Origin: an uncultured Methanosarcinales archaeon | GTDB taxonomy: Archaea; Nanobdellota; Nanobdellia; Woesearchaeales; DSVV01 | Direction of reading: 5' to 3' | Assembly (NCBI GenBank): GCA_964385055.1 | Contig: CAYLMH010000001.1 | Span: forward strand, 30,111 to 94,110 | Length of the DNA: 64,000 bases | The notes under the pieces: generated by a model | What the model saw: the letters and a program-made list of their open reading frames with translations, nothing else | What the model was told of the DNA's origin: nothing | Database searches by the model: none | Translations under genes and position numbers: made by a program | In this document: positions 8,345 to 27,977 of the stretch, in pieces | How positions within the stretch are numbered: the stretch's first letter is position 1 | Layout: each line of letters begins with the position of its first letter

Positions 8345-9814
8345 TTATGTACTTTTCGTCATCTGCATTTTAAGCATCATGCGTTGGGCTGAAAGTTTAA
8401 GAAGATCTTTTCCAGCAACAATGTTTCGTTTAAGATCCGCAAAGTTTCTCATTTCTTTGAGTTTTCGGACAATAAATCGGGGCCGTGTGTATAACTCAAA
8501 GTATGCTCGTCCATTCCAATAGGCGATCTCCTCTGCAGTAAGATACTTTGTCCGCACCATAGGCGTTGTCCCATGAGAAATGTGTTTTTCCCAATTCGTT
8601 GCGTCTTCCCCAACAAAAAGATTATTGTCTGCAACTTCCTTAAAGATTGGTGTTTCGAAATAAGGATTGAGAGTGTTAAAGTACGTAATATCAGCGTCAA
8701 TTTTTTTAGCGAATGCGATTGTTTGCTTAATTTCTTTTTCACTTTCCCACGGAAAGCCAATAAGGAAAGAACATTTTACTTGTATACCTACTTTTTTCGT
8801 GAGAACAACTGCGCGCTCAACCTGCTCAAGAGTAATAAATTTTTTGAGGCGATCAATACCTTCTTGATAACCACATTCAACACCAAAAATAATACTTCTA
8901 CAGCCACCTTCATACATTTTCTGTAAGATATCTTCTTTGACATTACTAACACGAGTGAGGCATTCCCAAATGACATCAATATTTCTCGCTTTTATCTCAT
9001 CACATATATCAATAACTCTTTTGTGATTAACAGTGAACTCGTCATCCTGAAAATACATGTGAGAAATACCAAAGGTTTTATTGAGGTACTCAATTTCATC
9101 AACAACAACCTTAGGGCTTCGCTGTCGCCATTTATACTGGTTCATTTGAACACTGGTGCAAAAGCCACATTGCGCAGTACAGCCACGAGAAGTAATCATC
9201 GTGGAAAATTTACGCCCGACATCTAATGCAGCATATGCCTTGTATTTATCCATAGGAAGAAGATGATATGCAGGCATGGGAAGCTCATCAAGATTTTTAA
9301 TAAGTTCCCGGGCTGGAGTTCGAACAGGCTTCTTGTTTTCATCAAGATAACAAATACCTTGTATTTTTCTATAATCCCCTTGTTTTTTTAAAATGTAATG
9401 AACAAGATCACGTGCTGTATATTCTGCTTCACCCATAATAACAAAATCAACACCTTCACGAACAACCGCTGTTTCTGGAAGAATTGTCGCGTGTGGACCA
9501 CCATAAAAGATAGTGACTTCTGGAAGCGCTTTTTTAAAATCTTTAATGAGATCCATCGTTAAAGGAAAGTTTGCAGTAACCCCCGCAGCAGCAATTATTT
9601 TTGGCTGTAATTCAGTTACTTTCTGAACAATCTCCGCATGATTCATGCCAAGAGTAAACGCATCAAGAATCTGAACAGTGTACCCTGCCTGCTCGAGAAC
9701 CGCGGCAATAGAAGCTACACCAAGAGGCGGACTTCTCGAGCTCAAGCTGTCAAGAATACCATAACTAAATGGAGGAGCAACAAAAAGAACGTCTAATTGC
9801 TTTTCTTGAGTCAT
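8345..9814 (-). CDS. Cobalamin-binding (class B) radical SAM protein
   Basis: The N-terminal B12-binding-like domain (DVLFVAPPFSYG..) is followed by SRGCTAQCGFCTS (a CxxxCxxC radical SAM cluster motif). Confidence 0.85.
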   Translation of the reverse strand: MTQEKQLDVLFVAPPFSYGILDSLSSRSPPLGVASIAAVLEQAGYTVQILDAFTLGMNHAEIVQKVTELQPKIIAAAGVTANFPLTMDLIKDFKKALPEVTIFYGGPHATILPETAVVREGVDFVIMGEAEYTARDLVHYILKKQGDYRKIQGICYLDENKKPVRTPARELIKNLDELPMPAYHLLPMDKYKAYAALDVGRKFSTMITSRGCTAQCGFCTSVQMNQYKWRQRSPKVVVDEIEYLNKTFGISHMYFQDDEFTVNHKRVIDICDEIKARNIDVIWECLTRVSNVKEDILQKMYEGGCRSIIFGVECGYQEGIDRLKKFITLEQVERAVVLTKKVGIQVKCSFLIGFPWESEKEIKQTIAFAKKIDADITYFNTLNPYFETPIFKEVADNNLFVGEDATNWEKHISHGTTPMVRTKYLTAEEIAYWNGRAYFELYTRPRFIVRKLKEMRNFADLKRNIVAGKDLLKLSAQRMMLKMQMTKST

Positions 9815-9901
9815 AGAACAAAAAGAAGAAGTTCAGTCAATTTAAACTTTACTATGGTTCTTTGCATAAGCTTTAAATATCGCACTAAACTATCGAAATA
9901 T

Positions 9902-11299
9902 ATGCTCGATGTGTTGTTAATTAATCCACCATATACAAAAAAAGGAGGAAATATTTGGAAAACCGTGGCAAGCTGTATGCCTCCTCGTTCTCTTGCAATT
10001 CTTGCAGCATGCTTTGAAAGAGATGGTAAGACAGTAAAAATTCTTGATACACATGCAGAACGACTTGCAGTGGATGACATGGAAGAATTTTTGCGCACGA
10101 ATTATGATAATCCTCGATTTATTGGTTTAACAGGGACAACAGTAACTATTCATCATGCATATGCTGTTGCACAATTATGCAAAAAACTCTGGCCAGAAAC
10201 AAAAATTGTTTTTGGGGGCTATCATGCATCATCAAAACCAGCAGAATGCATTCAGCAGCCATTCGTTGATTTTGTTGTTCGGGGAGATGGAGAAGAAGCG
10301 TTTTTGGAAATAGTCAATGGAGAGGATCCAACAAAGATAAAGAATCTCACATACCTCGATAAAAATAAGAAAGTAATTCATAATCCAGAAAGGGAAATGC
10401 CAAAGGATCTTGACATTTACCCTATTCCTTCGTATCATCTTCTTCCTCTGGACAAATATTTTCCTGCTGTTGGAGTGTACAAACGCCTTCCCGCAATTAG
10501 TGTAGTCACATCCAGAGGTTGCCCTGGAAAATGCACGTTTTGTTATCAGCCATATGGAACAAACCTACGATGGCATTCTGCAGAAAGAGTGTTTGAAGAG
10601 GTAAAACTATTGGTAACAAAATACGGATACAGAGAAATTTGTTTTTATGATGATAATTTTGCAACAAACAAAGCAAGAACAAGAAAGATCTGTGAACTTT
10701 TCCTTGGATCTGGATTAGATATTGTCTGGAGTTGTTTCTCACGAGTAGATTGGGCGGACGCAGAACTTCTCAAACTTATGAAAAAAGCAGGGTGCCATCA
10801 AGTCATGTTCGGCGCAGAGAGTGGCGATCAAGCAATGCTAGATGGAATGCGAAAACAAGTAACACTAGATAGAATCCGACAAGCAGTGAAGTGGACAAAG
10901 GATGCTGGTTTAGATTGTCGTGCAGCATTCCTCTTTGGAATGCCTGGCGAAACAGAAGAAACAATGAAGAAGACAATAGATTTTGCGCTTGAACTTGATC
11001 CAGATATTGCGCAATTTAATATTGCAACACCAAACCCAGGAACACAACTATACGACTGGGCAGAACAAAATGGGTATCTTGGAACGCAGCAATGGGAAGA
11101 CTATGACTGGGCTTCTCCTGTTTTAGTATTACCAACAGTTGATGCTGAACTCGTTAAAAAATATTACAAGCTTGCATATCGAAAGTTCTATATGCGACCG
11201 AGATACATAATAAAACGACTTGGAAAGCTTCGTTCTGTGGAAGATTTCAAAAATGCTGCACGAGCAATGCGAAGTGTTATTGATGTGACGTCACACTAA
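9902..11299 (+). CDS. Cobalamin-binding (class B) radical SAM protein (paralog)
   Basis: MLDVLLINPPY N-terminus and SRGCPGKCTFCYQ CxxxCxxC motif. The start was moved to the internal ATG at 9902, because the ORF N-extension overlaps the divergent gene. Confidence 0.85.
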   Translation: MLDVLLINPPYTKKGGNIWKTVASCMPPRSLAILAACFERDGKTVKILDTHAERLAVDDMEEFLRTNYDNPRFIGLTGTTVTIHHAYAVAQLCKKLWPETKIVFGGYHASSKPAECIQQPFVDFVVRGDGEEAFLEIVNGEDPTKIKNLTYLDKNKKVIHNPEREMPKDLDIYPIPSYHLLPLDKYFPAVGVYKRLPAISVVTSRGCPGKCTFCYQPYGTNLRWHSAERVFEEVKLLVTKYGYREICFYDDNFATNKARTRKICELFLGSGLDIVWSCFSRVDWADAELLKLMKKAGCHQVMFGAESGDQAMLDGMRKQVTLDRIRQAVKWTKDAGLDCRAAFLFGMPGETEETMKKTIDFALELDPDIAQFNIATPNPGTQLYDWAEQNGYLGTQQWEDYDWASPVLVLPTVDAELVKKYYKLAYRKFYMRPRYIIKRLGKLRSVEDFKNAARAMRSVIDVTSH

Positions 11300-11332
11300 T
11301 GAATAAAGCATAATCAATAACATAATCAGGAA

Positions 11333-13291
11333 TTAATCAATTCTATAAAGTTGAACGCGATTTTCTTCATAAAGCAATGTTGCATGAGTACGGAAAAGCG
11401 CAGAATACAAAGAAGTGATGTGTTGCCCATAGTAGGCATCGTAAAAGCCATAAGTATAATTGTATTGAGGGAAGAGTGTAATACGAATGTGAGTAATATT
11501 TTTTTCTTGAAAGTCCGCATATAACGCATCAGCAGAGTCTAATCCCCTATAATCAATATAGAGCATGTTATTCATCGGTTCTCCCCAAACATATGGTCGT
11601 TGGATATAATACCCACGAAGGTCATTTGCCAGGAGAATAACAGCATCATGAGGAAGGTTATTATTAATGTAATCATCAACAGGTGCGACAGACACACGCT
11701 GGTCACGGTAATAGTCAAGAGGCTCTTGAAATGTAAAGACAGGAAGAGCAGACCGATAAATCACAAAATAAGCAACAGGATTAGAGAGAAGGAGAAAAAA
11801 GAAAAAAACAAGAATAAAAGAACGGAATTTTGAGAAAGAAGAAAAACGAGAAGTAATATGCTGTATGGTTTGGGCAACAATGATAGAGAGAAGAAAAAAA
11901 CCAAAAAAGAGGAGTCTGTAAGAGTGCTGTGTTTTATACCATATCAAAAGGAGAAAGAAAAATGTAAGAAAGTAAAAAGAGAACTGCTTAATTAGAGAGA
12001 GAGAAAATGAATATTTTCTGGAAAGCATGAAATAGATCGCAAGAGGACAAAAGAGTAAAAAAATTGCACCAATCCCATAAATACTGCCAAAATAAGAAGG
12101 AGTGAAGGTCATGTAAAAAGGAAGGAGAAAAAAAGTGAGAGGGTTTGATTTATCAAACGTTGTGTTGACAAAATAATCATTCCAGGCAAGCATGAGCTCT
12201 GGATTTGTTCCAAGAGAATTGGTGAACAGAGAAGTTAAAAAAGGCCAAACGGGATTATGCGTGTAATAAAAATTTTTGAGATACTGAGGAAGAAAGAAGA
12301 GAGAAGAGAGACAAAGACCAACAAAAACAAGAAATAAAAAAGAGGAAGTACTTTTCTTCTCAGTTTTATTTAAGAAAAAGTAAAGAAGGAGAACAAGAAG
12401 CGTAAAGAAGACAGTAAATAAACCAGTGTATTTTATACCTGCAGTAATCCCACTAAAAATAAATGCAAGAAGGATAAAAGATGATGTGGACTTTCTTTGA
12501 GGGGGAGTAAAGAAGAGAAGAAAGACAAAGAAAAAAGCAAAGAACTGATATGCCATAGTAATAATATCAATGTTAGGGTTAGTGATAAAAATGCTTATTT
12601 CTGGGAGTGTGTAAAGAATAATGAGAGAGTAAAGTGCAACAAGAGAGCCATAAAAGTATCGAACAAAGGAATAAAGTCCGAGAAACAAGGCATGGTGAAA
12701 CGAAAAAAGAATGAACGAAACAAAAAAGGATCCTAACGTAAAATCAAAGAGAAAACCAATTCCAAAGAGAACTTCTGCTAATTGAGGAAACTGCGCATGA
12801 AAGATGAAAGATGGTGGCGCTGTTGAATGTGTTGTTGCGTACCATTGCGCAAGAGGAAGGTGATACGCAAGCGCGTCCCATTCACTAAACGGGAAGAAAG
12901 TTAGAATTGTATTAAAGAAAAAAAAGAGTGCAAAAAGCAGCCAAATAAGAAGAGAATAACGAAAAGGAGTAAAAGAAGGAAAGTGAAAAGAGCGGGCGAA
13001 AGACATGAAGAAGGAAATCAATGAAAACATATCATGATATGATAGAACTAAAAAAAGAAGCAGAAGAAGGAAAAGAGCATATAAAGAGAAGAAAGAGAAA
13101 AGGCCTAAAAGAAATAAGAAAAGCATGAAGAAAGCATAACCTAAAAAGAATGAAGTGATAAAAAAGAATAAAGGAGAGAAGAGAGAAACACGGAATTGTC
13201 GCAGAATGAAGGATCCAAAAGAAGTAACAATAAGACTAATAATAAAGAAGAGAAGAAAAGCAAAAATAAAAGAGAGAACACCGGGCATCAT
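11333..13291 (-). CDS. Large polytopic membrane protein with a C-terminal soluble domain (GT-C-like candidate, family B)
   Basis: Extremely hydrophobic N-terminal ~450 aa with an FSEWDALAYHLPLAQWY loop motif. The C-terminal domain resembles that of 16904-18685 (YRGLDSADALY..ITHIRITL vs YGLDEISSNLT..FRWVVLY). Confidence 0.5.
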   Translation of the reverse strand: MMPGVLSFIFAFLLFFIISLIVTSFGSFILRQFRVSLFSPLFFFITSFFLGYAFFMLFLFLLGLFSFFSLYALFLLLLLFLVLSYHDMFSLISFFMSFARSFHFPSFTPFRYSLLIWLLFALFFFFNTILTFFPFSEWDALAYHLPLAQWYATTHSTAPPSFIFHAQFPQLAEVLFGIGFLFDFTLGSFFVSFILFSFHHALFLGLYSFVRYFYGSLVALYSLIILYTLPEISIFITNPNIDIITMAYQFFAFFFVFLLFFTPPQRKSTSSFILLAFIFSGITAGIKYTGLFTVFFTLLVLLLYFFLNKTEKKSTSSFLFLVFVGLCLSSLFFLPQYLKNFYYTHNPVWPFLTSLFTNSLGTNPELMLAWNDYFVNTTFDKSNPLTFFLLPFYMTFTPSYFGSIYGIGAIFLLFCPLAIYFMLSRKYSFSLSLIKQFSFYFLTFFFLLLIWYKTQHSYRLLFFGFFLLSIIVAQTIQHITSRFSSFSKFRSFILVFFFFLLLSNPVAYFVIYRSALPVFTFQEPLDYYRDQRVSVAPVDDYINNNLPHDAVILLANDLRGYYIQRPYVWGEPMNNMLYIDYRGLDSADALYADFQEKNITHIRITLFPQYNYTYGFYDAYYGQHITSLYSALFRTHATLLYEENRVQLYRID

Positions 13292-18685: not shown

Positions 18686-18703
18686 GGACTTTGTTTTTAT
18701 ATC

Positions 18704-20527
18704 TTATGGATGAAACGAAGAGTTTCCGAAGAAGTCCAAACTAAAAGAAGAGATATCCTGACAGGCAGGAAAATTCATTCCATTCTCTTGAAGCACAACG
18801 CGAGCAGTTTCTGCTTGCTCCCAACTCAAGAGACAGAGTTCATCATAATGAGTAAAATAATAGAGAGAAAGTTCTTCCTTGAAAGCTGCGCACTGATCAG
18901 GATCACTGAAAAAGATATACAAAACAGGTTTGTCCCTGTTTTCCAAGAAGGGAACAGCAACAGAGCAGTGAGAGATACCAGATGCTTGAGAGAAGTTGAA
19001 AAGATCATAGAGATTAGAATAGGGGAAAGAATTGTCAGATGCATCAAAGGGGAAAAAACGAACAAGAGCAACATCATATTGTTTTGTGTTAATAACATCA
19101 TAAAAAAGAGCAGCATGTTCAGGTAAGGGAACATAATGATATTTAAAATACGAATCTAAAAGAAGAGGGTTTGCAAAGTCATTGGTTACAACAGTGATTT
19201 CATAATCAGAGAGAGAATCTTTGTAAAATGTTGTCGACACGTTAAGACCAATAGTATAAACTATCCGTGGGCTAGAAGTAGTATCCCATTCCAAAAAGAT
19301 AGGATTAAGAAGATAAAATATCTTATCATCAAGAGAAAAATAGGGAAAGTCATGCTGTAAGCTCAGACTATTAGGTTTTCGTTCTAGAAGAAACACGCCA
19401 TCCACAGAAGAAAGATAATCAGCACCTGCACGAAGAGTAATTCGCGATGAAGCAACAGAAAGTTGATCTTGGTAAAAGTGAAGAAGGAAAGGCGTTATGA
19501 AAAGAAGACCAATAAAGAGCAGAGCAACTCGATGTTTTCGTGGCAGAGAAAAATAATAAAGAAAGATGCATATCAGGAACAAAAAGTAAAAGGGAAGAAA
19601 ATAAACTGCGAGAGATAGTTCCTCTCTACCTGTTTGGCGTAAAAAGACAAGAACAAGAATAAGAAAAGGAAAAGAGAGAAGAAAAGAAAAGAGATTTCTG
19701 GATTTATAAAAGAAAAAGAAACCAAAAGCGATCATGAAGACAAGCATGAAAAAGAAGAGGTTATGATGAGAAAAAATGTTAAATCCTGAAAAAAAAGTAA
19801 ACAATGCTTGAGAAGTTGTTCCTTTAGGATAGATCGTATGAGCAAGAGAAACATAAACAAAGAATTTTGGAAATAAGATGTAGAGAAAAGCAACAGAAGA
19901 GAAAGAAACAAGAAAAATAGTTTTTACATTCGAAACAAGCTGCTCTCTGTTCATAAAAAGATAATAAAATAAGAGAAACACTGCAGGAACAAGGAGAAGA
20001 TATTTAGTAAAAACCGCGAGAAAAAGAAGGAAAGAAGAGAGAGCAATTTTATACCTATGCGAGGTATAAACTAGAAGATAAAGTGCAAGGAAAAAAAAGA
20101 AACACGCAAGAGTAATATCAAAAACAGGTAAGAAAGGATAGTAAATAAAAAACATATAGACAAAAAGCAAACGAAAGAAAGTCTTTACATCCGTTTCTCT
20201 AAAAATAAATGTACGTATCAAAAAGAATAAAGCGGTGTGAAGAAAAACTGCGAAGAGCGTAAGACCTGAATAAAGAGAATTACCCAGAAAAGAGTAAAAA
20301 ACATACACGATATAGAAAAGAACTGGCCCTTGTTCGCAATAAGGCTGTCCTTCATAAAGAGTTCCTTGAGAAATGTAATCCATACAAACAAACCAACGAT
20401 CGCGAAATAACTCTCCTTGAAGATTTGGAAAATGAAGTGCTGCAAGAATAAAGAAAACAAGAAAACAGAAAGAAAAGAGAAAGAAAGGACGTTTCTGAAA
20501 TAAGAGAAGGGTTTCCCGTAATTGCAT
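18704..20527 (-). CDS. Large polytopic membrane protein, family A paralog (GT-C-like candidate)
   Basis: Motif FVCMDYISQGTLYEGQPYCEQGPVLFYIVYV, at least 10 TM segments and a ~250-aa C-terminal soluble domain. Confidence 0.6.
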   Translation of the reverse strand: MQLRETLLLFQKRPFFLFSFCFLVFFILAALHFPNLQGELFRDRWFVCMDYISQGTLYEGQPYCEQGPVLFYIVYVFYSFLGNSLYSGLTLFAVFLHTALFFLIRTFIFRETDVKTFFRLLFVYMFFIYYPFLPVFDITLACFFFFLALYLLVYTSHRYKIALSSFLLFLAVFTKYLLLVPAVFLLFYYLFMNREQLVSNVKTIFLVSFSSVAFLYILFPKFFVYVSLAHTIYPKGTTSQALFTFFSGFNIFSHHNLFFFMLVFMIAFGFFFFYKSRNLFSFLLSFPFLILVLVFLRQTGREELSLAVYFLPFYFLFLICIFLYYFSLPRKHRVALLFIGLLFITPFLLHFYQDQLSVASSRITLRAGADYLSSVDGVFLLERKPNSLSLQHDFPYFSLDDKIFYLLNPIFLEWDTTSSPRIVYTIGLNVSTTFYKDSLSDYEITVVTNDFANPLLLDSYFKYHYVPLPEHAALFYDVINTKQYDVALVRFFPFDASDNSFPYSNLYDLFNFSQASGISHCSVAVPFLENRDKPVLYIFFSDPDQCAAFKEELSLYYFTHYDELCLLSWEQAETARVVLQENGMNFPACQDISSFSLDFFGNSSFHP

Positions 20528-20623: not shown

Positions 20624-21583
20624 ATGCGAATACTCGTCACAGGGGGATGCGGTTTTATTGGCAGTGAAGTAGTCAAACAACTGCTCCAAAAAGGACATCA
20701 TGTCATAGTTCTAGACAATCTCAGCAAACCAGAAAGCTCGATCAAAGAAGGATATGAATTCCGAAAAGTGGATCTCAACGATAAGCTTGCAACAGAAAAA
20801 GCGTTTGCAGGAGCAGATATCTGCATTCATCTTGCTGCAAAGATTGGAGGCATTGGCTATTTTCATAAATATCCTGCAACAATTCTGAGTGAAAATAACA
20901 AAATGTATTCTTCTGTGTTTGAAGCAGCAGTAAAAAACAAGCTCAAGCGCATGGTCTATGTTTCCTCGTCAATGGTCTTTGAATCCGCAACACAATTTCC
21001 AAGCAAAGAAGAAGACACAAAACTCATTCCACCGCCAGTTTCAGCGTATGGCTTTTCCAAGCTCATTGGTGAATGGTATTGCTACTCCTTTTGGGATGAG
21101 TACAAACTTCCCTACTCGATTTGCCGACCATTTAATGCGTATGGTATTAATGAATTTCCTGGTCAAGAAATTGGCTACGCACATGTTATTCCTGATCTAG
21201 TAAAAAAGATCCTCAACGGCCAACATCCATTGGAAATGCTTGGTGATGGTCAGCAGACACGCTGCTTTACGCACGTGAGCGACATCGCAAATGGAATTAT
21301 TACAGTCGCGCTTTCTCCAAAAGCAGAAAATCAGGATTTTAACGTCGCAAGCCCAGAAGAAACAAAGATGATTGAACTTGCAGAAAAGATATGGAGAATC
21401 TGCGGGAGAAAAGAACCATTCCAAGTCAAACATGTGGAGGGATTCAAATACGACATTAAGCGCAGAGTTCCTGATACAACAAAGATAGCGAAAGTGCTCA
21501 ACTGGAAACCACAAGTGGAATTCGAAGACGGATTGCGTGAAGTGGTAACGTGGTTAAAAAAAGAACTCGAAAAAAAGAAGTAA
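20624..21583 (+). CDS. NAD-dependent nucleotide-sugar epimerase/dehydratase (SDR, GalE/WbpP-like)
   Basis: MRILVTGGCGFIGSEVVKQL and catalytic YGFSKLIGE (YxxxK). Confidence 0.85.
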   Translation: MRILVTGGCGFIGSEVVKQLLQKGHHVIVLDNLSKPESSIKEGYEFRKVDLNDKLATEKAFAGADICIHLAAKIGGIGYFHKYPATILSENNKMYSSVFEAAVKNKLKRMVYVSSSMVFESATQFPSKEEDTKLIPPPVSAYGFSKLIGEWYCYSFWDEYKLPYSICRPFNAYGINEFPGQEIGYAHVIPDLVKKILNGQHPLEMLGDGQQTRCFTHVSDIANGIITVALSPKAENQDFNVASPEETKMIELAEKIWRICGRKEPFQVKHVEGFKYDIKRRVPDTTKIAKVLNWKPQVEFEDGLREVVTWLKKELEKKK

Positions 21584-21614
21584 GGAAAGAGCGGGAAAAG
21601 AAGGAAAAGTAAAA

Positions 21615-22358
21615 ATGAAAGAAGAAAAAAACAAGCAAAAAACAGAACAAGAAACAAAAATGCTTCCAGAAATCAGTGTTATCATCGCGTCATTCAATGA
21701 AGAAAGAAACATTAGAGAAACAATTCAGCGTGTGTACAAGACAATGCCAAACTGTGAACTGATTCTTGTCGAAGGCGGTACAGACAAAACAATAGAAATT
21801 GCAGAAGAAGAAAAGAAAAAACATCCAAGCATGATTATTATTCACAATAAAGAAGACAAAGGAAAAGGACAAGCAATTAGAGTGGGAATTGCTGCAGCGA
21901 CAAAACCAATCATGGCACAAGTGGATGCGGACTCACAGTTTCCTCCTGAAGAACTCCCTGGACTCATAAAACCAATTCTCGAGAAAAAAGCAGATATTGT
22001 TTTCGCGTCACGATTTGTCAAAGGATCAACGATCGAAGACGGATCACTCACCAGAATGCGAAGACTTGCAAACTATGTGGTTTCAGGATTCACTTCCCTA
22101 CTCTGCGGAACGCGATTGACAGACGTAAATGCAGGATTTAAGGCGTGGAAAAGCGACGTCATCAGAGATATTGACATGCAGTGCAATCATTTTGGCTATG
22201 AACCAGAAATTGCAATTATGGCTGCAAAAAAAGGCTATACAATCATCGAAACACCGGTAAATTACAAAGGAAGACAGCGGGGAATCTCCAACGTCAAATT
22301 ATTGAGAGATGGAATCATTATTCCCATCTTCCTCCTCAAAACAAAATTCTTCAGGTAA
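21615..22358 (+). CDS. GT2 glycosyltransferase (DPM1-like)
   Basis: ISVIIASFNEERNI..LILVEGGTDKT..VDADSQF are GT2 signatures. The true start may be the internal M at 21660. Confidence 0.85.
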   Translation: MKEEKNKQKTEQETKMLPEISVIIASFNEERNIRETIQRVYKTMPNCELILVEGGTDKTIEIAEEEKKKHPSMIIIHNKEDKGKGQAIRVGIAAATKPIMAQVDADSQFPPEELPGLIKPILEKKADIVFASRFVKGSTIEDGSLTRMRRLANYVVSGFTSLLCGTRLTDVNAGFKAWKSDVIRDIDMQCNHFGYEPEIAIMAAKKGYTIIETPVNYKGRQRGISNVKLLRDGIIIPIFLLKTKFFR

Positions 22359-22370
22359 TGTTTAGAGAAC

Positions 22371-23123
22371 ATGGAAAAGAAAACACAGAACAAAGAAGCT
22401 GAGAAAGAGTTCTTTGATAATGCGCTCAGCGAATCGCCATGGACAACGTTTAACGCAAACGGACAAAAACAGATATTCAAATTGTTTGAAGAAAACGTCA
22501 AGCCAAGAAAAGGAGAAATAGCGCTGGACATGGGTTGTGGCACAGGAGAATTTTCTGAACGACTAGAAGAGTATGGTTTGCAAGTCACAGGAATGGATAT
22601 TTCAAAGAAAGCAATAGAACTATGCAAAGAAAAGTACAAAGAAAAAAAGAATATGCATTTTGAAGTGCAGGATATTGAAAAAACAACGTGGAAAGATGAA
22701 TCTGCGGACATTATCTTTTTCGGAGGAGTCCTCCATCACTTTCCGCACAGAGAAAAAGTCTTCAAAGAGGCATTTCGCATTCTAAAAAAAGGGGGAAGAA
22801 TATTCGCCTTTGACCCGCATTATTATAACCTTATCATCTGGACATATCGAGAATTGCTGGGAGTAAAAACACAAAAGACAGAGAACGAAGTCCTCATAAA
22901 ACCAGAAGAAATAAGGAAGGAACTCACCAGTGCAGGGTTTACGCAGATTAATGCAAAAGGAACAGCGAATATCACATTTGATATGCGCTACTTCAAGAAG
23001 CTTGTTCCATTCCCCTTATATTACGGAGCGTACATCTACAATGGCATTGAACGAGGAATACACAGCATCAAACCACTAGAAGAAAAGTATGGCTCATTTG
23101 CAATAACGTATGCAAGAAAATAG
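22371..23123 (+). CDS. Class I SAM-dependent methyltransferase
   Basis: ALDMGCGTGEFSERL motif I, ILKKGGRIFAF. Confidence 0.85.
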   Translation: MEKKTQNKEAEKEFFDNALSESPWTTFNANGQKQIFKLFEENVKPRKGEIALDMGCGTGEFSERLEEYGLQVTGMDISKKAIELCKEKYKEKKNMHFEVQDIEKTTWKDESADIIFFGGVLHHFPHREKVFKEAFRILKKGGRIFAFDPHYYNLIIWTYRELLGVKTQKTENEVLIKPEEIRKELTSAGFTQINAKGTANITFDMRYFKKLVPFPLYYGAYIYNGIERGIHSIKPLEEKYGSFAITYARK

Positions 23124-23134
23124 AGACAATAAAG

Positions 23135-25141
23135 ATGGAGAAGAAACAAAAAATATGGTTAAAAATAATCTTCATACTAGTTTTACTCACGTTTGTTTTG
23201 TATAGAACAGAAGAGTATTTTGGCTGGATAGGATATAGAGAAACATGGACAACATGTATTGATTATATTCAAGAAGGAACCTTATGGAGTGGTCAACCGC
23301 ATTGCGAAGGTGCGCTAGTTCCTTTTTATGTGATTTATGAATTAGATAACATTTTCGGCAGGGAATATGTCCAAAAAGCAACAATCGTATTATCGACAAT
23401 GATTGCATTGTTATTTTTCTGGGTTTTTTGGAAAACAGCAAAGAAAGAAGGGCTTGAAAATGATTTTTTTCTCCCTGCAGTGTTGTTTGGCTTGCTTTTT
23501 TATATAAACACGATCACAAATGTTGAAGCAGTTCTAAACAGCTTCTTTTTTTTCTCCGCATACTATATATTATTTTTTACAGAACATCGCTGGAAATATT
23601 ATGAAACAGGAGTGCTTTTGTTACTTGCTCTTTTGTCAAAAATAAATGTCATTATTCAAATAGTATTTTTACTCTTTTGGTACGGATATGAAAAGAAGCT
23701 TTGGCATTTTGAAGAGGGAAAACTAAAGATACAGTTAAAGAGAGAAATTCTCTGGGGATATGCGCAGATTTTCACCCCAATATTTATAGGGTTTTTGCTT
23801 GCGATGAGAATGTATAAATATTTCTGGATATATGCATGGCAGGTCTTTACAAAGCAAAATATTGCATTATCGTTTCTCCAAACAACAAAAGAAATGTTTT
23901 TGTTTGACATAACAAAAACAGATATTATATATATTGTCGTGTTAATGACCGCACTCATCTGCACATATTTATTTTGGAAAGAGAAGAAGTTTTATACATT
24001 GATGAGTGGCCCTGTATTTCTGCTTGCAATCTTTCTCATTATCCGCGCGTTTGGCATTCAATTTGCAACAGGAGTAAGATATTGGTCTGTTATATTCCCC
24101 TTCGCGATTTTAAGTATTTTAAAGGTAAAAGAAACATGGACAAAAGCACCGCTAAAACAAGTGATGTATGGATTTCTCATAATAATTATAGTATTCCCTG
24201 GACTCTATGAAGGTCCATTTTTATTGAAAGATGACTTGAGTTATGTGGATAGTATAAACATTATTGACAAAGCAACAGAAGGATGGAAAGAAAAGGATGC
24301 CCTCATCAAAGAGATCCATTATGGATATAGTATTGTCCCAGAGCAAGAGGAGAGAATTTTATTAGAAGATGATCCTGCTGGATTTAAAAGAAAGATCATT
24401 TCTTTTGGATCAAATATCCCTTATGAAAAAGTGGATTTTCTTACAAAAAAATATATGGAGTCACATCCGGATATATGGGGTTTTCCACGATACCAAGAGT
24501 TACTCGGAGAAAATCTGATATATGAACCAACATCAGAAAATCTTAATGAAAGAGAGCAGGACGTAATCAAAAAGATTGAGAATGGAACGTATAGTTTAAT
24601 CATTTTAGGACCACCAGAATGGGCAATTTCTGAAAAAATACTGGCAAATGTGAAGAATGAAACATTAAGCGAGTATTGTCAAGTCCTTGTCCCAAATAAT
24701 GTGTGGTTAACAGAAGGAGGTTGGCATTTTAGTTATTTCTTTTTTAAAGATCAAAACCATTGTGGTGAGATGCTGGAGAAAATGACGATTTATTTCAGCA
24801 CGCATTTTCAAGAGATCTGTACAAAAGATAAGACAACAGCAAATATGATTACACAAGTAATGCTGCAAAACGAAATGAATTTTAACATGGCATGCAGTGA
24901 TGGAGGAAGTGCGTTAGAAGCGCTCAAAACAGGAAAAGCGATAAAGAAAGTTGAAATTCTTTTGATGCTGATACTATTTGCGTTGCCAAGTATATATGGA
25001 GCGTATAAAGAAGAAGATAAAGAAAGAAGAAGAAAATTATGTATAATTTTGTTTATCTTATTGATTATATTTATACTTGTTATATCACTCATGAATGCAG
25101 AAATATCATTTAAGAGCGGAATTGTACAAGCAATTCAATAA
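23135..25141 (+). CDS. Large polytopic membrane protein, family A paralog (GT-C-like candidate)
   Basis: Motif TCIDYIQEGTLWSGQPHCEGALVPFYVIYE, many TM segments, a central and C-terminal soluble region, and a final TM helix. Confidence 0.55.
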   Translation: MEKKQKIWLKIIFILVLLTFVLYRTEEYFGWIGYRETWTTCIDYIQEGTLWSGQPHCEGALVPFYVIYELDNIFGREYVQKATIVLSTMIALLFFWVFWKTAKKEGLENDFFLPAVLFGLLFYINTITNVEAVLNSFFFFSAYYILFFTEHRWKYYETGVLLLLALLSKINVIIQIVFLLFWYGYEKKLWHFEEGKLKIQLKREILWGYAQIFTPIFIGFLLAMRMYKYFWIYAWQVFTKQNIALSFLQTTKEMFLFDITKTDIIYIVVLMTALICTYLFWKEKKFYTLMSGPVFLLAIFLIIRAFGIQFATGVRYWSVIFPFAILSILKVKETWTKAPLKQVMYGFLIIIIVFPGLYEGPFLLKDDLSYVDSINIIDKATEGWKEKDALIKEIHYGYSIVPEQEERILLEDDPAGFKRKIISFGSNIPYEKVDFLTKKYMESHPDIWGFPRYQELLGENLIYEPTSENLNEREQDVIKKIENGTYSLIILGPPEWAISEKILANVKNETLSEYCQVLVPNNVWLTEGGWHFSYFFFKDQNHCGEMLEKMTIYFSTHFQEICTKDKTTANMITQVMLQNEMNFNMACSDGGSALEALKTGKAIKKVEILLMLILFALPSIYGAYKEEDKERRRKLCIILFILLIIFILVISLMNAEISFKSGIVQAIQ

Positions 25142-25211
25142 ACAAAAGGAATGGGAAGAGTAAAGAACACATTTTCATAAGCTTTAAGAAAGAAAAAGGA
25201 GAAACAAGAAT

Positions 25212-26012
25212 ATGGAGGAAAAAATTTCTGCGTTTGTCATCACAAAAAATGAAGAAGAGAAGATAGAAAACTGTTTGAACCACCTCCTTTGGGCAGATGA
25301 AATTATTATTCTTGACAGTAAAAGCACAGATAATACAGTCAAAAAAGCAAGAAAATATACAAAGAAAGTGTTTAGTAGGGAATTTGATGGGTATGGTGCA
25401 CAGAAACAAGCAGCAATTGACAAATGCACAAACAACTGGATTCTAGAAGTTGACGCTGATGAAATAGTAACAAAAGAATTACAAGAAGAAATAATAAAAT
25501 TGAAACAGAGTCAAGAAATAAATAAGTATGCAGGATACACAATACAAAGACAAGAATATTTTTTAAACAAAAAACTAATGGTATCAAAAATACCACGATT
25601 ATATAAGAAAGAAAATGTAAGATACAAAGGATACATTCACGAGAAGCTGGATATTAAAGGAAGTATTGGACACCTAAAAAAGAAGATAGAACATGAATCA
25701 GATAAGTATGAATCAATTGCAAAAAGAGTGGAAAAAATAAATGAATACACAAAAAAAGAAGCAGAGCATAAAATAAAAGAACAACAATGGACAACAGCAA
25801 AAGTGCTCCTAAACATGATAATAATCCCTGAATGCTATTTTCTATGGTTTTACTTGCGAAAGGCATTAATTTTAAAAGGATATAGGGGACTTATTTGGTC
25901 ATTACTTACAGCATACTACCATTTCTTAATCTACGCAAAGTTATATGAGTATATTTATAAAGCAAAAGAAGCATCCAACTCGAGGAAATACAATGAAAAA
26001 AATCAAAATTGA
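25212..26012 (+). CDS. GT2 glycosyltransferase, WaaE/KdtX-like
   Basis: ISAFVITKNEEEKIENCLNHLLWADEIIILDSKSTDNT is the pattern of LPS-core-type GT2 (WaaE-like). Confidence 0.75.
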   Translation: MEEKISAFVITKNEEEKIENCLNHLLWADEIIILDSKSTDNTVKKARKYTKKVFSREFDGYGAQKQAAIDKCTNNWILEVDADEIVTKELQEEIIKLKQSQEINKYAGYTIQRQEYFLNKKLMVSKIPRLYKKENVRYKGYIHEKLDIKGSIGHLKKKIEHESDKYESIAKRVEKINEYTKKEAEHKIKEQQWTTAKVLLNMIIIPECYFLWFYLRKALILKGYRGLIWSLLTAYYHFLIYAKLYEYIYKAKEASNSRKYNEKNQN

Positions 26013-26598
26013 ATATCATAAAGGAAAGTGTATTGGCGCGTTTAATTGCACAAATATTGCTCCTGCGTTCTTCAAAGAACAAGGCACGAAAGCGGATCTT
26101 CTTGGCGCAATAACAGAGAAAGGCTATCAAACATTGGATGTGGAATGTGATAACGAAACTGCTGCGCAGATTATAGAGGCTGCGGAAAAATGCCCTGCAA
26201 ATGTCATTAATGTGATTGACAAAACAGCAAACCAAAAAGTAGTGGATACCACAATAAAAATAAAAGAAGATATAAGAGAAATTAAAGCAGAATATGATGA
26301 CAGAAAAGAATTTGTGCTCGATGAAAAAGGATATTTTTTAATTCGAATTGTTCCTGAAAAAAAGATGATAGAAATTGGGTTCTGTGGAAAAAGAAACACG
26401 ATAGAAGTAAAAGTGCATGGAAAAACACCTATTGAAATATACCAAACAGTACTGAAGGAAAAAATAATTGACAGAGCAGATCACGCAGCATATTTAGGGA
26501 GAGAATTGCAAAAAGCGTATACAGCACTTCAATTAGGAATACCTTATGTACAAGATGATGAGCTCGATCTCGAGCACCTAAAGAAAAAAGGGACATAA
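25993..26598 (+). CDS. Ferredoxin-like (divergent Cys-motif) domain fused to an uncharacterized alpha/beta domain
   Basis: MKKIKIEYHKGKCIGAFNCTNIAPAFF....ECDNETAAQIIEAAEKCPANVI has a mono-cluster ferredoxin layout (C-x5-C...C...CP). The start was placed at the ATG 25993, overlapping the upstream GT2 by ~20 nt. The stop lies 2 nt before the radical SAM start. Confidence 0.55.
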   Translation: MKKIKIEYHKGKCIGAFNCTNIAPAFFKEQGTKADLLGAITEKGYQTLDVECDNETAAQIIEAAEKCPANVINVIDKTANQKVVDTTIKIKEDIREIKAEYDDRKEFVLDEKGYFLIRIVPEKKMIEIGFCGKRNTIEVKVHGKTPIEIYQTVLKEKIIDRADHAAYLGRELQKAYTALQLGIPYVQDDELDLEHLKKKGT

Positions 26599-26600
26599 TA

Positions 26601-27977
26601 ATGAAAGTTCTCTTAATATTTCCACCACAAAATCTCGAAGCGAGATACAGCCATAACATGGGTAATGTTGGCGGTTTTCTTCCGCCTTTAGGCCTCTGTT
26701 ATATGGCAGCAGTGCTCGAAAAAGAAAACCATGAAGTCCGCATCATGGATTGTCCAGTGAATGATTACAGAATCAACCATATTCTTGATGAAGTGCGATC
26801 GTTTAAGCCAGATGTTGTGGGAACAGCAGCAATTACCTCGCTTGCAGAAGTCACCAAAGGAATATGCGCTGCGATAAAAAAAGAAGCGCCAGGCACCACA
26901 ATTATGGTAGGTGGTCCACATGCGTCCATCATGCCAAAGGAAGTTGCAGAAACAATGGACGTGGATATTGTTCTTGTTGAAGAAGCAGATGGAAGAATTG
27001 CAGAAATTGTTGCAGATCTTCCAAAATATAAAGAAATGAAAATAGTGCAGTGCGGAAAAGTAAAAGACCTCAATACATTGCCATATCCCGCGCGCCATTT
27101 AGTGGATATGAGCAAATATACAAGCTTGCCAAATACCTACAAAACATCACCAAACGTATTCCAGATGGTCACCTCACGAGGCTGTCCATATACCTGCACA
27201 TTTTGTTTTGACGCAAAAGGCACGTTCAGACAGCGATCAGTAGAAAATGTGATTGGAGAACTCAAATTGCTCCAAAAAGAGTATGGCATCAAAGAAGTCG
27301 CGTTTTGGGATGACATCATGACCTTAAACAAAAAATGGATGCATGATTTCTGTGATGCAGTGGAAAAAGAATTACCAGGACTAGTCTGGAGCTGTTACAC
27401 ACGATTAAATCTCGTGGATAAACCATTGCTTGTGCACATGAAAAAAGCAGGATGTTGGAATATTTTCTTTGGTATTGAAGCAGGAGATCAAGAACTCCTT
27501 GACAATATGAAAAAGCTCATGACTCTCGATCAAATGCGACAAGCAGTCAAGTGGGTACAAGAAGCTGGCATTGAAATTAGAGGCTCGTTTATGATTGGTC
27601 TTCCTGGAGAAACACCAGAAAAAGCGAGAAAAACAATTGACTTTGCGATTGAATTAGAACCAGATTATGCACAATTTTCTATTACCACTCCGTATCCAGG
27701 AACAGAACTTTGGAATACCTATGAAAAATGGGGAACACTGGACAAATCATTCAAGGATTATCATGGCTGGTCCCCAGTCTTCGTTCCGAATGGGTATAAA
27801 GACAGAAAAGAATTAATGGATATTCACAAAGAAGCGTTTCGAAGATTCTACATGCGTCCCAAGTATGTTGCAAGAAGAATTGCAAAAATCAGAACATGGG
27901 ATGACATCAAACGCTATGCAATTGGCGCGCGCGTTGTTTTCGGAATGTTAGGCAGAGAGAAAACGAGTGGACACTAA
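26601..27977 (+). CDS. Cobalamin-binding (class B) radical SAM protein (third paralog)
   Basis: MKVLLIFPPQ B12-domain N-terminus and SRGCPYTCTFCFD CxxxCxxC motif. Confidence 0.85.
   Translation: MKVLLIFPPQNLEARYSHNMGNVGGFLPPLGLCYMAAVLEKENHEVRIMDCPVNDYRINHILDEVRSFKPDVVGTAAITSLAEVTKGICAAIKKEAPGTTIMVGGPHASIMPKEVAETMDVDIVLVEEADGRIAEIVADLPKYKEMKIVQCGKVKDLNTLPYPARHLVDMSKYTSLPNTYKTSPNVFQMVTSRGCPYTCTFCFDAKGTFRQRSVENVIGELKLLQKEYGIKEVAFWDDIMTLNKKWMHDFCDAVEKELPGLVWSCYTRLNLVDKPLLVHMKKAGCWNIFFGIEAGDQELLDNMKKLMTLDQMRQAVKWVQEAGIEIRGSFMIGLPGETPEKARKTIDFAIELEPDYAQFSITTPYPGTELWNTYEKWGTLDKSFKDYHGWSPVFVPNGYKDRKELMDIHKEAFRRFYMRPKYVARRIAKIRTWDDIKRYAIGARVVFGMLGREKTSGH

What the first reader, a model, noticed from the sequence alone, without database searches (positions are those of the whole stretch)
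8345..27977. Three cobalamin-binding (class B) radical SAM paralogs embedded in a glycosylation island
8345-9814(-), 9902-11299(+) and 26601-27977(+) all have an N-terminal B12-binding-like domain followed by SRGC(P/T)..C(T/G)FC. They are interleaved with GT2/GT-C glycosyltransferases and SAM methyltransferases. Class B radical SAMs typically methylate unactivated carbons (e.g., Fom3/GenK-type sugar C-methylation, HpnP) or perform ring chemistry (archaeal GDGT ring synthases GrsA/B). Three paralogs in a surface-glycan locus suggest unusual C-methylated or otherwise radical-modified sugars, or lipid-carrier modification. As far as I know, no archaeal glycan pathway with this arrangement has been characterized.
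Basis: partly seen in the sequence, partly recalled or inferred. Interest (0 to 1): 0.7.

Follow-up and report, generated by a model that had tools for sequence, protein, structure and literature searches.

The report
Radical SAM trio in archaeal glycosylation island
A tiny symbiotic-type (DPANN) archaeon carries three old, distinct radical-SAM enzymes with vitamin-B12-type domains inside its cell-surface sugar-building gene island, and their relatives in other microbes sit beside the same sugar-transfer genes, which points to an undescribed way of chemically editing surface sugars.

Summary
8345-9814(-), 9902-11299(+) and 26601-27977(+) each encode an intact protein with an N-terminal B12-binding-type domain, a radical SAM core and a CxxxCxxC motif. 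They lie in a roughly 45-kb glycosylation island of a Woesearchaeota-like DPANN archaeon.

They are ancient paralogs (30-38% identity). rSAM1 and rSAM3 have orthologs of their own in other phyla; rSAM2 has only one close ortholog.

None reaches the curated cut-off of HpnJ, BchE, AprD4 or any other named family. The closest solved structure is AprD4, a sugar 1,2-diol dehydratase that does not bind cobalamin, so cofactor use is unproven.

The link to glycans holds up. In 18 of 20 ortholog loci of rSAM1 and rSAM3, glycosylation genes lie within 5 kb, against 4 of 37 for a more distant relative group. The cassette rSAM3 / GT2 / methyltransferase / GT-C recurs in other genomes, and a similar rSAM / GT2 / methyltransferase triad occurs in a Hyphomicrobiales MAG.

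Best reading: the enzymes tailor a sugar by radical chemistry, probably while it is linked to polyprenyl phosphate, before a GT-C enzyme transfers it. The reaction (C-methylation, dehydration or rearrangement) is unresolved. I found no published description.

The parts
8345..9814 (-). rSAM1, 489 aa: B12-binding-type domain plus radical SAM core (CTAQCGFC)
   Evidence: Pfam hits. Best NCBIfam hit is BchE at 232 bits (cut-off 481). Orthologs at 42-93% identity in Woese-, Nano- and Altiarchaeota. Forms its own clade.
9902..11299 (+). rSAM2, 465 aa: B12-binding-type domain plus radical SAM core (CPGKCTFC); transcribed divergently from rSAM1
   Evidence: Pfam hits. Best NCBIfam hit is HpnJ at 262 bits (cut-off 577.6). 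A 90% ortholog lies next to the rSAM1 ortholog in L089. The best 50%-cluster representative is only 47% identical.
26601..27977 (+). rSAM3, 458 aa: B12-binding-type domain plus radical SAM core (CPYTCTFC)
   Evidence: Pfam hits. Orthologs at 50-88% identity across DPANN and at 57% in Elusimicrobia. AlphaFold2 model with pLDDT 91.5. Closest solved structure is AprD4, TM-score 0.72.
9815..9901 (.). Divergent intergenic region between rSAM1 and rSAM2, with two TTTAAA(T) TATA-like boxes
   Evidence: Read directly from the sequence. Promoter function is inferred, not shown.
7761..8339 (-). Class I SAM methyltransferase (MT_a, 192 aa), 5 nt downstream of rSAM1 on the same strand
   Evidence: Pfam Methyltransf_23 and Methyltransf_11. 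Similar small methyltransferases lie near rSAMs of this kind in L001, L002, L008, L090, L097 and L100.
7039..7758 (+). GT2_a, 239 aa: polyprenyl-phosphate-type glycosyltransferase
   Evidence: Pfam GT2. Best NCBIfam hits are AglJ (117 bits), PgfS, ArnC and PpgS, all below their cut-offs.
11333..13291 (-). Polytopic membrane protein, 652 aa, about 13 transmembrane segments; probable GT-C-like transferase
   Evidence: No Pfam hit. Hydropathy. hhalign against the PMT_2 family gives probability 88%.
16203..20527 (-). Module without an rSAM: membrane protein of 607 aa (18704-20527), PMT_2 GT-C (16904-18685) and GT2_b (16203-16904)
20624..25141 (+). Module without an rSAM: SDR epimerase, GT2_c, methyltransferase MT_c and a GT-C-like membrane protein of 668 aa
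   Evidence: The same order is found in L005 and L089.
25212..26012 (+). GT2_d, 266 aa
   Evidence: Pfam GT2. Orthologs in L005 and L089.
25993..26598 (+). Ferredoxin (single-cluster) fused to DUF4346, 201 aa; it ends 2 nt before rSAM3. A possible electron donor, but not a fixed partner
27967..28974 (+). GT2_e, 335 aa; overlaps the end of rSAM3 by 11 nt. Best hit is ArnC-like (undecaprenyl-phosphate sugar transferase)
   Evidence: Orthologs at 69% identity directly after the rSAM3 ortholog in L006/L007, and the same gene order in L089.
28845..29660 (+). Class I SAM methyltransferase MT_e (the true start is probably later than the TTG at 28845)
   Evidence: Pfam Methyltransf_11. A 54% ortholog of 240 aa lies in the same position in L006/L007, and a 240-aa methyltransferase occupies that position in L089.
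29636..31378 (+). PMT_2 (GT-C) transferase, 580 aa; last gene of the rSAM3 cassette
   Evidence: Pfam PMT_2 at 5.8e-18. A 51% ortholog closes the cassette in L006/L007, and a PMT_2 protein does so in L089.
4914..6908 (-). Membrane protein of 664 aa, paralog of the 668-aa and 607-aa proteins; GT-C-like
33683..44923 (.). Remainder of the island: GT2_f, RmlD-DegT fusion, three SDR dehydratases/epimerases, NDP-sugar pyrophosphorylase, Wzx-type flippase, UDP-sugar dehydrogenase and two more epimerases
   Evidence: Pfam hits.

Best explanation
**What they are.** The three genes encode anciently diverged enzymes with class B architecture: a B12-binding-type Rossmann domain, a radical SAM core and a C-terminal helical region. 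They belong to the large unassigned part of the superfamily that lies nearest to HpnJ, BchE and AprD4.

**Where they sit.** They are parts of a repeated building block of a DPANN surface-glycosylation island. Each block has:
- a small GT2 of the polyprenyl-phosphate type, resembling AglJ, ArnC, PgfS and PpgS
- one or more tailoring enzymes (a class I SAM methyltransferase, with or without a radical SAM enzyme)
- a polytopic GT-C-type transferase

**How I think it works (inferred, not shown).**
1. The GT2 loads a monosaccharide onto dolichyl or polyprenyl phosphate at the cytoplasmic face.
2. The radical SAM enzyme abstracts a hydrogen from an unactivated sugar carbon. It then either adds a methyl group through cobalamin or triggers a dehydration or rearrangement of the AprD4 or HpnJ type.
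3. The methyltransferase adds an O- or N-methyl group.
4. After flipping, the GT-C enzyme transfers the edited sugar to a surface acceptor.

**What is shown.** Domain content, intactness, paralogy, the conserved gene neighbourhood and cassette, and the family placement.

**What is inferred.** The substrate, the lipid-linked stage, cofactor use and the reaction.
For: - **Domains and motif:**
- **Three separate clades:** rSAM1 and rSAM3 have orthologs in other phyla; rSAM2 has one 90% ortholog (L089) and otherwise relatives of 47% identity or less.
- **Glycosylation genes within 5 kb:** 18 of 20 ortholog loci, against 4 of 37 for the more distant group from the metagenome scan (32-37% identical to rSAM1, mostly hot-spring and vent samples); Fisher p = 3.6e-9.
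- **Density gradient:** across 86 loci, GT2 density falls with distance from the rSAM gene, from 0.14 to 0.04 per 1.5-kb bin.
- **Conserved cassette:** rSAM3 / GT2_e / MT_e / PMT_e, with overlapping stop and start codons in the window, recurs in L006/L007 (78%, 69%, 54% and 51% identity) and in L089.
- **Immediate neighbours of rSAM3 orthologs:** GT2 in 6 of 8 loci and PMT_2 in the other 2.
- **Same triad in bacteria:** rSAM / polyprenyl-phosphate-type GT2 / methyltransferase in a Hyphomicrobiales MAG, next to pseudaminic-acid genes. An rSAM3 ortholog in Elusimicrobia lies next to PMT_2.
- **GT2 type:** the best hits of the window's GT2s are polyprenyl-phosphate sugar synthases.
- **Relatives act on sugars:** the closest solved structure, AprD4, acts on an aminoglycoside sugar. 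HpnJ and Cds are proposed to ring-contract lipid-linked hexoses (PMC13459092).
- **Precedent for tailoring on the carrier:** methylation of dolichol-linked glycans is documented in Halobacterium (PMC11407970).
Against: - There is no biochemical evidence of any kind.
- Gene neighbourhood cannot tell apart action on a lipid-linked sugar, an NDP-sugar, a finished glycan, a glycolipid head group or the lipid carrier.
- The best family scores (HpnJ and BchE, 159-262 bits) are generic for this part of the superfamily. Unrelated bacterial relatives score the same.
- Cofactor use is unproven, and DPANN archaea would have to import corrinoids. That point rests on my background knowledge and was not tested here.
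- Neighbour detection used the window's own proteins as queries, which favours detection in related genomes.
- MT_a seems to be reduced to a 73-aa ORF in the closest relative, L089, so the rSAM-methyltransferase pairing is not obligatory.
Confidence: 0.6

Rival explanations
1. The enzymes modify lipids rather than glycans. One version is head-group chemistry on a glycolipid made by the adjacent GT2: a ring contraction of the HpnJ or Cds type that gives a cyclitol ether. The other is methylation or cyclisation of the polyprenol carrier or of scavenged membrane lipids.
For: - HpnJ is the best or second-best NCBIfam hit for all three.
- GT2-rSAM adjacency resembles the hopanoid hpnI-hpnJ arrangement (PMC13459092).
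- Related DPANN islands hold rSAMs that score 434-436 bits on the HpnJ model.
- Many characterised class B enzymes modify lipids.
Against: - The window proteins score less than half the HpnJ cut-off.
- The cassette ends in a GT-C transferase, which uses lipid-linked sugars as donors rather than as end products.
- The GT2 next to the near-HpnJ proteins resembles MftF and EpsD, not HpnI.
- The window contains no lipid-synthesis genes.
Confidence: 0.17
2. The enzymes are cobalamin-independent, like AprD4. The N-terminal domain is only a structural Rossmann-like module. The reaction is a diol dehydration, deoxygenation, epimerisation or oxidation of a sugar, not a methyl transfer. This rival concerns cofactor and reaction type; it is compatible with the glycan-tailoring role.
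For: - AprD4 is the best sequence match among solved structures for all three (E 1e-18 to 4.5e-30).
- AprD4 is also the best structural match over the full length (TM-score 0.72, E 1.7e-26).
- AprD4 does not bind cobalamin (PMC12931638).
- Three extra conserved cysteines are shared with AprD4.
- SDR genes, which could reduce a keto-sugar product, are abundant and directly adjacent in several rSAM1-ortholog loci.
Against: - Significant sequence similarity to AprD4 covers only the radical SAM core (residues 156-384). The N-terminal segment aligns at 1.7 bits.
- The N-terminal domains score 78-84 bits on PF02310.
- In sequence searches they align with the N-terminal regions of the cobalamin-binding enzymes TokK and OxsB.
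- One related DPANN island places a PduO-type corrinoid adenosyltransferase next to a B12-type rSAM.
- NCBIfam AprD4 scores are 88-126 bits against a cut-off of 500.
Confidence: 0.3
3. The enzymes modify peptides or proteins, for example the S-layer protein or a small RiPP-like peptide, and lie in the island only because their target is a surface protein.
For: The RiPP enzyme ApyD is among the top NCBIfam hits (153-175 bits). MgmA, a protein glutamine C-methylase, is the second-best hit among solved structures for rSAM2 and rSAM3 and the third for rSAM1.
Against: - All scores are far below the cut-offs (ApyD cut-off 750).
- I did not look for a precursor-peptide gene, and no peptidase or RiPP-recognition gene turned up in the annotated ORFs of the window.
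- The conserved partners are GT2, GT-C, methyltransferase and NDP-sugar genes, not peptide-maturation genes.
Confidence: 0.06

Closest known systems
AprD4 (radical SAM 1,2-diol dehydratase of apramycin biosynthesis, PDB 6FD2)
   Same: It is the best sequence match among solved structures for all three proteins and the best structural match to the rSAM3 model over the full length (TM-score 0.72). It has the same three-part architecture, its substrate is a sugar, and it shares three extra conserved cysteines.
   Different: - The NCBIfam AprD4 model scores 88-126 bits against a cut-off of 500.
- Significant sequence similarity is confined to the radical SAM core.
- AprD4 acts on a soluble aminoglycoside in an antibiotic gene cluster and does not bind cobalamin.
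- Here the context is a GT2/GT-C surface-glycan module.
HpnJ (hopanoid BHT cyclitol-ether formation) and, by analogy of reaction, calditol synthase Cds
   Same: HpnJ is the best or second-best NCBIfam family, with near full-length alignment. Its proposed substrate is a hexose already attached to a lipid by a neighbouring GT2 (PMC13459092), which matches the GT2-rSAM adjacency seen here.
   Different: - Scores are 206-262 bits against a cut-off of 577.6.
- There is no hopanoid context, the host is an archaeon, and a GT-C transferase is present.
- The same score level is seen in many unrelated relatives.
- Cds could not be compared, because no sequence was available.
BchE (anaerobic Mg-protoporphyrin IX monomethyl ester cyclase)
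   Same: It is the best NCBIfam hit for rSAM1 (232 bits, near full length). It is a class B enzyme that is not a methylase.
   Different: The cut-off is 481. There are no bacteriochlorophyll genes. JGI's automatic naming of orthologs as this cyclase is an over-annotation.
Glycosylation systems that use polyprenyl-phosphate-linked sugars (ArnC/ArnT, GtrB/GtrC, PgfS/PgfM, PpgS/Rv3779, archaeal AglD/AglS)
   Same: A small GT2 whose best hits are AglJ, ArnC, PgfS, PpgS and a dolichyl-phosphate hexose transferase is paired with a PMT_2/GT-C membrane transferase. The Arn pathway tailors the sugar while it is on the lipid; that point is background knowledge. ArnC's role is described in PMC12690121.
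   Different: To my knowledge, and in the searches made here, none of these systems contains a radical SAM enzyme. None of the GT2s reaches an equivalog cut-off. No GtrA-type flippase was identified.
Class B radical SAM sugar C-methyltransferases (GenK, GenD1) and Fom3
   Same: The domain architecture is the same. They act on sugar or cytidylylated substrates.
   Different: They are not among the top family hits. The related P- and C-methylase models PhpK, Sden_1168 and KedN5 score 47-158 bits against cut-offs of 575-700. Those enzymes belong to antibiotic gene clusters.

Membership tests
Class B (B12-binding-domain) radical SAM enzymes | N-terminal B12-binding-type Rossmann domain (PF02310) followed by a radical SAM core (PF04055) | tested here: met
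   All three score 78-84 bits on PF02310 (gathering score 32.1) and 66-94 bits on PF04055. The rSAM3 model shows the expected fold.
Class B (B12-binding-domain) radical SAM enzymes | CxxxCxxC motif that binds the [4Fe-4S] cluster | tested here: met
   CTAQCGFC, CPGKCTFC and CPYTCTFC. The three cysteines are invariant in the ortholog alignments.
Class B (B12-binding-domain) radical SAM enzymes | Actual binding and use of cobalamin | not testable with these tools
   AprD4, the closest solved structure, has the same architecture but binds no cobalamin. The only circumstantial support is a corrinoid adenosyltransferase next to a distant paralog in L092.
HpnJ (TIGR03471) | Score at or above the curated equivalog cut-off of 577.6 bits | tested here: not met
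   219, 262 and 206 bits.
HpnJ (TIGR03471) | Hopanoid biosynthesis context (hpnI, hpnK, squalene-hopene cyclase) | tested here: not met
   No such genes in the window. The host is archaeal.
BchE (TIGR02026) | Score at or above the cut-off of 481 bits, and a bacteriochlorophyll gene context | tested here: not met
   232, 205 and 159 bits. No tetrapyrrole genes in the window.
AprD4 diol dehydratases (NF033070) | Score at or above the cut-off of 500 bits | tested here: not met
   88, 121 and 126 bits. The significant phmmer alignment covers only the radical SAM core.
GDGT ring synthases GrsA/GrsB | Orthology to Saci_1585 / Saci_0240 | not testable with these tools
   No reference sequence or named model was available. 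Indirect evidence: no named lipid-enzyme model scores high (ladderane-type lipid model 117-125 bits against a cut-off of 360; HpnR 84-116 against 650). The conserved context of the orthologs is glycosylation.
Lipid-phosphate-sugar (GT2 plus GT-C) glycosylation module | A GT2 of the polyprenyl-phosphate sugar synthase type next to a GT-C-fold membrane transferase | tested here: met
   The GT2s hit AglJ, ArnC, PgfS, PpgS and a dolichyl-phosphate hexose transferase, all below their equivalog cut-offs. PMT_2 hits. Four more membrane proteins are linked to PMT_2 by hhalign.
Lipid-phosphate-sugar (GT2 plus GT-C) glycosylation module | Demonstrated lipid-linked sugar intermediate and a flippase | not testable with these tools
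   No GtrA-type protein was recognised. A Wzx-type flippase lies at 39793-41292.

The most novel reading that the evidence does not exclude
Bacteria and archaea share a previously unrecognised module in which B12-type radical SAM enzymes edit monosaccharides while these are carried on polyprenyl phosphate, between a GT2 loader and a GT-C transferase. The products would be C-branched, deoxygenated or carbocyclic sugars on the surfaces of DPANN archaea and of bacteria such as Elusimicrobia. Genome-reduced symbionts would then keep several cofactor-hungry enzymes solely to diversify their surface glycans.
Probability: 0.3. Interest if true: 0.8.

Novelty: new variant of a known kind. Interest (0 to 1): 0.55.

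Why it matters
- **Chemistry.** Class B radical SAM enzymes are known from antibiotic, cofactor, lipid and protein modification. Neither a 2026 review of the class nor a 2024 review of archaeal N-glycosylation mentions one working in a cell-surface glycan pathway. A conserved rSAM / GT2 / methyltransferase / GT-C cassette would add radical chemistry to the set of reactions that can occur on lipid-linked sugars.
- **DPANN biology.** Their glycans are uncharacterised, their genomes are small, and their life depends on cell-to-cell contact. Three such genes kept in one island suggest that unusual surface sugars matter to them.
- **Practical use.** The four-gene cassette at 26601-31378 is compact and could be expressed in a host.
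- **Annotation.** Public labels such as 'anaerobic Mg-protoporphyrin cyclase' or 'YgiQ' on these proteins are wrong.

Tried and rejected
1. **Phosphonate or P-methylation chemistry** (PhpK, Sden_1168 and Fom3 analogies). The Pfam scans of the window's ORFs returned no PEP mutase or phosphonopyruvate decarboxylase hit. The cytidylyltransferase-like gene at 62-1654 resembles RfaE domain II, not the Fom1 type.
2. **An auxiliary Fe-S cluster bound by three extra invariant cysteines** (C251, C265, C285 in rSAM3). The same cysteines occur in AprD4. To my recollection AprD4 has a single cluster, so they are not evidence for a second one.
3. **The ferredoxin-DUF4346 protein as a dedicated partner of rSAM3.**
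   - It lies next to rSAM3 here and in L005.
   - In L089 it lies among GT2 genes and away from rSAM3.
   - In L091 it lies in an unrelated context.
   - It is absent from the loci of the more distant rSAM3 orthologs.
   - DUF4346 has no informative fold match, and no paper mentions it.
4. **An HpnI-HpnJ pair in DPANN.** The GT2 next to the near-HpnJ proteins resembles MftF and EpsD, not HpnI.
5. **The 177-aa ORF at 31436-31969 as a corrinoid adenosyltransferase.** It shows no similarity to one.
6. **Recent horizontal acquisition.** The GC content of the three genes (0.39-0.41) matches the window (0.38).
7. **Using conservation of the N-terminal domain to judge cofactor binding.** The result was uninformative.
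9. **The last contig look-up.** It returned nothing, so the source record was not identified.
10. **Sigma-70 promoter and terminator scan.** It found nothing above chance, and it does not apply to an archaeon anyway.

Full report
**Observation**

The three ORFs are present as described. 8345-9814(-) encodes 489 aa, 9902-11299(+) encodes 465 aa, and 26601-27977(+) encodes 458 aa. For the second gene the longest ORF starts at TTG 9797, but ATG 9902 is the start that aligns with the paralogs and orthologs.

Each protein has a Pfam B12-binding domain (78-84 bits, gathering score 32.1) followed by a Radical_SAM domain. The cluster motifs read SRGCTAQCGFC, SRGCPGKCTFC and SRGCPYTCTFC. Pairwise identity is 32%, 38% and 30% over the full length. 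Orthologs of the same length at 88-93% identity show that the genes are intact.

**Setting**

The window is archaeal. It carries RadA, Cdc6, A-type ATP synthase and TYW1. The closest relatives of its proteins are named Woesearchaeota or Nanoarchaeota.

It contains:
- six GT2 genes
- two PMT_2 (GT-C) genes
- four other membrane proteins with 9-13 transmembrane segments
- three class I SAM methyltransferases
- GT1 and GT9 genes
- two UDP-sugar dehydrogenases
- several SDR dehydratases or epimerases, and an RmlD-DegT fusion
- a sugar nucleotidyltransferase and a Wzx-type flippase

Three of the four extra membrane proteins are paralogs of one another. Profile comparison links them to the PMT_2 family with 95% probability, and the fourth with 88%.

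The best NCBIfam hits of the GT2s are polyprenyl-phosphate sugar synthases: AglJ, ArnC, PgfS, PpgS and a dolichyl-phosphate hexose transferase. All score below the equivalog cut-offs.

The island therefore reads as a series of modules: a GT2, tailoring enzymes, and a GT-C-type transferase. Two modules contain radical SAM genes:
- GT2_a / MT_a / rSAM1 / rSAM2 / 652-aa membrane protein
- GT2_d / ferredoxin-DUF4346 / rSAM3 / GT2_e / MT_e / PMT_2

In the second module the gene ends overlap or nearly touch. The gap before rSAM3 is 2 nt, and rSAM3 overlaps GT2_e by 11 nt.

**Family placement**

No protein reaches the curated cut-off of any NCBIfam model.

| Protein | Best hits (bits) | Cut-offs |
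|---|---|---|
| rSAM1 | BchE 232, HpnJ 219 | 481, 577.6 |
| rSAM2 | HpnJ 262, BchE 205 | 577.6, 481 |
| rSAM3 | HpnJ 206, ApyD 173, BchE 159 | 577.6, 750, 481 |

These scores are generic for this part of the superfamily. Bacterial and archaeal relatives from quite different contexts score the same.

Among solved structures, AprD4 is the best sequence match for all three. MgmA (PDB 9CCB, identified through PMC11796369), TokK, TsrM, OxsB and CysS follow.

A confident AlphaFold2 model of rSAM3 (pLDDT 91.5, pTM 0.90) is closest to AprD4 over the full length (TM-score 0.72). It then matches MgmA, OxsB, TsrM, CysS and TokK.

AprD4 is a sugar 1,2-diol dehydratase that does not bind cobalamin (PMC12931638). 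Its significant sequence similarity to rSAM3, however, covers only the radical SAM core. The N-terminal domains align with the cobalamin-binding enzymes TokK and OxsB. Cobalamin use is therefore plausible but unproven.

The superfamily neighbourhood is very large. An exhaustive search with rSAM2 found 13,023 clusters (at 50% identity) with E below 1e-30.

A neighbour-joining tree places the three proteins in three separate clades.
- rSAM1 groups with DPANN sequences, including an Altiarchaeota protein at 42% identity.
- rSAM3 groups with Woese-, Aenigm- and Iain-/Diapherotrites sequences and Elusimicrobia sequences at 57%.
- rSAM2 has only one close ortholog (90%, in L089). Its other relatives are at most 47% identical.

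**Is the link to glycosylation conserved?**

Yes. Gene lists around rSAM3 orthologs in six independent genomes show GT2, PMT_2, methyltransferase and NDP-sugar genes, usually with one or two more B12-type rSAMs. One of these genomes is a complete 1.05-Mb Iainarchaeum chromosome and another is a 659-kb Elusimicrobia contig. rSAM1 orthologs show the same picture.

The cassette rSAM3 / GT2_e / MT_e / PMT_2 is conserved as a unit. In L006/L007 the four proteins are 78%, 69%, 54% and 51% identical to the window's. L089 has the same gene order. L089 is a close relative that carries all three rSAMs in a rearranged island.

I counted loci with at least 5 kb of flanking sequence.

| Group | Loci with glycosylation genes within 5 kb |
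|---|---|
| Orthologs of rSAM1 and rSAM3 | 18 of 20 |
| Distant group from the metagenome scan (32-37% identical to rSAM1, BchE-like, mostly hot-spring and vent samples) | 4 of 37 (Fisher p = 3.6e-9) |
| Distant relatives from the genome collection | 33 of 60 |

Across 86 loci, GT2 density falls from 0.14 to 0.04 per 1.5-kb bin with distance from the rSAM gene.

A Hyphomicrobiales MAG has the same triad (rSAM / AglJ- or PpgS-like GT2 / methyltransferase) beside pseudaminic-acid genes.

One caveat applies. Neighbours were detected with the window's own proteins as queries, which favours related genomes.

**Mechanism**

The following are shown: domain content, paralogy, the conserved cassette, and a polyprenyl-phosphate-type GT2 paired with a GT-C.

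The following is inferred. The GT2 loads a sugar onto dolichyl or polyprenyl phosphate. The rSAM enzyme abstracts a hydrogen from an unactivated sugar carbon. It then either methylates through cobalamin or triggers a dehydration or rearrangement of the AprD4 or HpnJ type. The methyltransferase adds an O- or N-methyl group. The GT-C transfers the edited sugar outside the cell.

There are precedents for tailoring at the lipid-linked stage. Methylation of dolichol-linked glycans is documented in Halobacterium (PMC11407970). HpnJ and Cds are proposed to ring-contract lipid-bound hexoses (PMC13459092).

I cannot choose between C-methylation and non-methylating chemistry. I note only that the nearest characterised relatives are not methylases.

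**Rivals**

- Lipid or glycolipid head-group modification (0.17).
- Cobalamin-independent chemistry of the AprD4 type (0.30; compatible with the main reading).
- Peptide or protein modification (0.06).

**Things that led nowhere**

- The three extra conserved cysteines are shared with AprD4.
- There are no phosphonate genes.
- There is no compositional sign of recent transfer.

**Literature**

- Four searches combining B12 or radical SAM terms with DPANN, Woesearchaeota, glycosyltransferase, polyprenyl or surface-glycan terms found no description of such a system.
- The 2024 review of archaeal N-glycosylation does not mention radical SAM enzymes.

**Verdict**

Cofactor and reaction remain open.

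These are three unassigned subfamilies of a known superfamily in a pathway context that has not been described. I rate this moderately high in interest, mainly because the compact cassette makes the question directly testable.

Noticed in passing
window 25993-26598 (+); L005 9193-9795; L092 6001-6597: A fusion of a single-cluster ferredoxin and DUF4346, about 200 aa, is conserved across Woesearchaeota (377 hits). DUF4346 also forms the C-terminal extension of some MtrA-like and dihydropteroate-synthase-like proteins. It has no fold match among solved structures and no mention in the paper library. In L092 the protein sits beside a PduO-type corrinoid adenosyltransferase and a 516-aa B12-type rSAM.
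   Followed up: partly
L001 12456-13982 (-); L008 4599-6119 (-): Iainarchaeia/Diapherotrites islands that hold an rSAM3 ortholog also hold a 506-508-aa rSAM scoring 434-436 bits on the HpnJ model (cut-off 577.6). That is much closer to HpnJ than anything in the window. The adjacent GT2 resembles MftF and EpsD, and a small methyltransferase lies nearby. This may be cyclitol-type chemistry in DPANN.
   Followed up: partly
L011 4703-17831; L053; proteins P0376, P0384, P0423, P0437: Some bacterial MAGs carry tandem arrays of 7-8 B12-type rSAM paralogs. Some proteins of 2,000-2,600 aa contain two to four matched B12-rSAM stretches.
   Followed up: no
window 62-1654 (+) and 3618-4883 (+): One gene has an N-terminus like the RfaE domain II adenylyltransferase, followed by about 400 aa with no family match. 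Another is a GT9 heptosyltransferase-like gene (129 bits on heptosyltransferase III, cut-off 170). Together they hint at ADP-heptose-type chemistry in an archaeon.
   Followed up: no
window 34624-36849 (-): A 741-aa fusion of an RmlD-like reductase and a DegT-type aminotransferase. It is conserved at 67% identity in L006/L007.
   Followed up: no
window 9815-9901: The 87-nt divergent spacer between rSAM1 and rSAM2 holds two TTTAAA(T) elements. Each lies about 22-35 nt upstream of one start codon, as expected for archaeal TATA boxes with short leaders.
   Followed up: no
L089 5833-6351: A DDE transposase fragment lies between the rSAM3 cassette and the rSAM2/rSAM1 pair in the closest relative. 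Its island is rearranged relative to the window. There the DUF4346 gene has lost its ferredoxin part, and MT_a appears reduced to a 73-aa ORF.
   Followed up: partly
L013 10001-15777: A Hyphomicrobiales MAG has rSAM / AglJ- or PpgS-like GT2 / methyltransferase, and on the other strand an ArnC-like GT2 / rSAM pair. Both lie next to PseB and NeuB/PseI genes. The same module logic therefore occurs in Alphaproteobacteria.
   Followed up: partly
L114-L150 (metagenome loci, mostly hot-spring and hydrothermal-vent samples): A coherent group of about 450-aa B12-type rSAMs, 32-37% identical to rSAM1. The members I scanned score highest on the BchE model (212-271 bits). They occur as single genes with no glycosylation neighbours. 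Their function is unknown.
   Followed up: partly
window 51410-52495 (+): A fourth radical SAM gene in the window is TYW1 (wyosine formation). It is unrelated to the island.
   Followed up: no
L009 (contig CAZXRI010000052.1): A 66% ortholog of rSAM3 lies on a 7.6-kb contig binned as 'Methanosarcinales'. This is probably a mis-binned DPANN contig.
   Followed up: no
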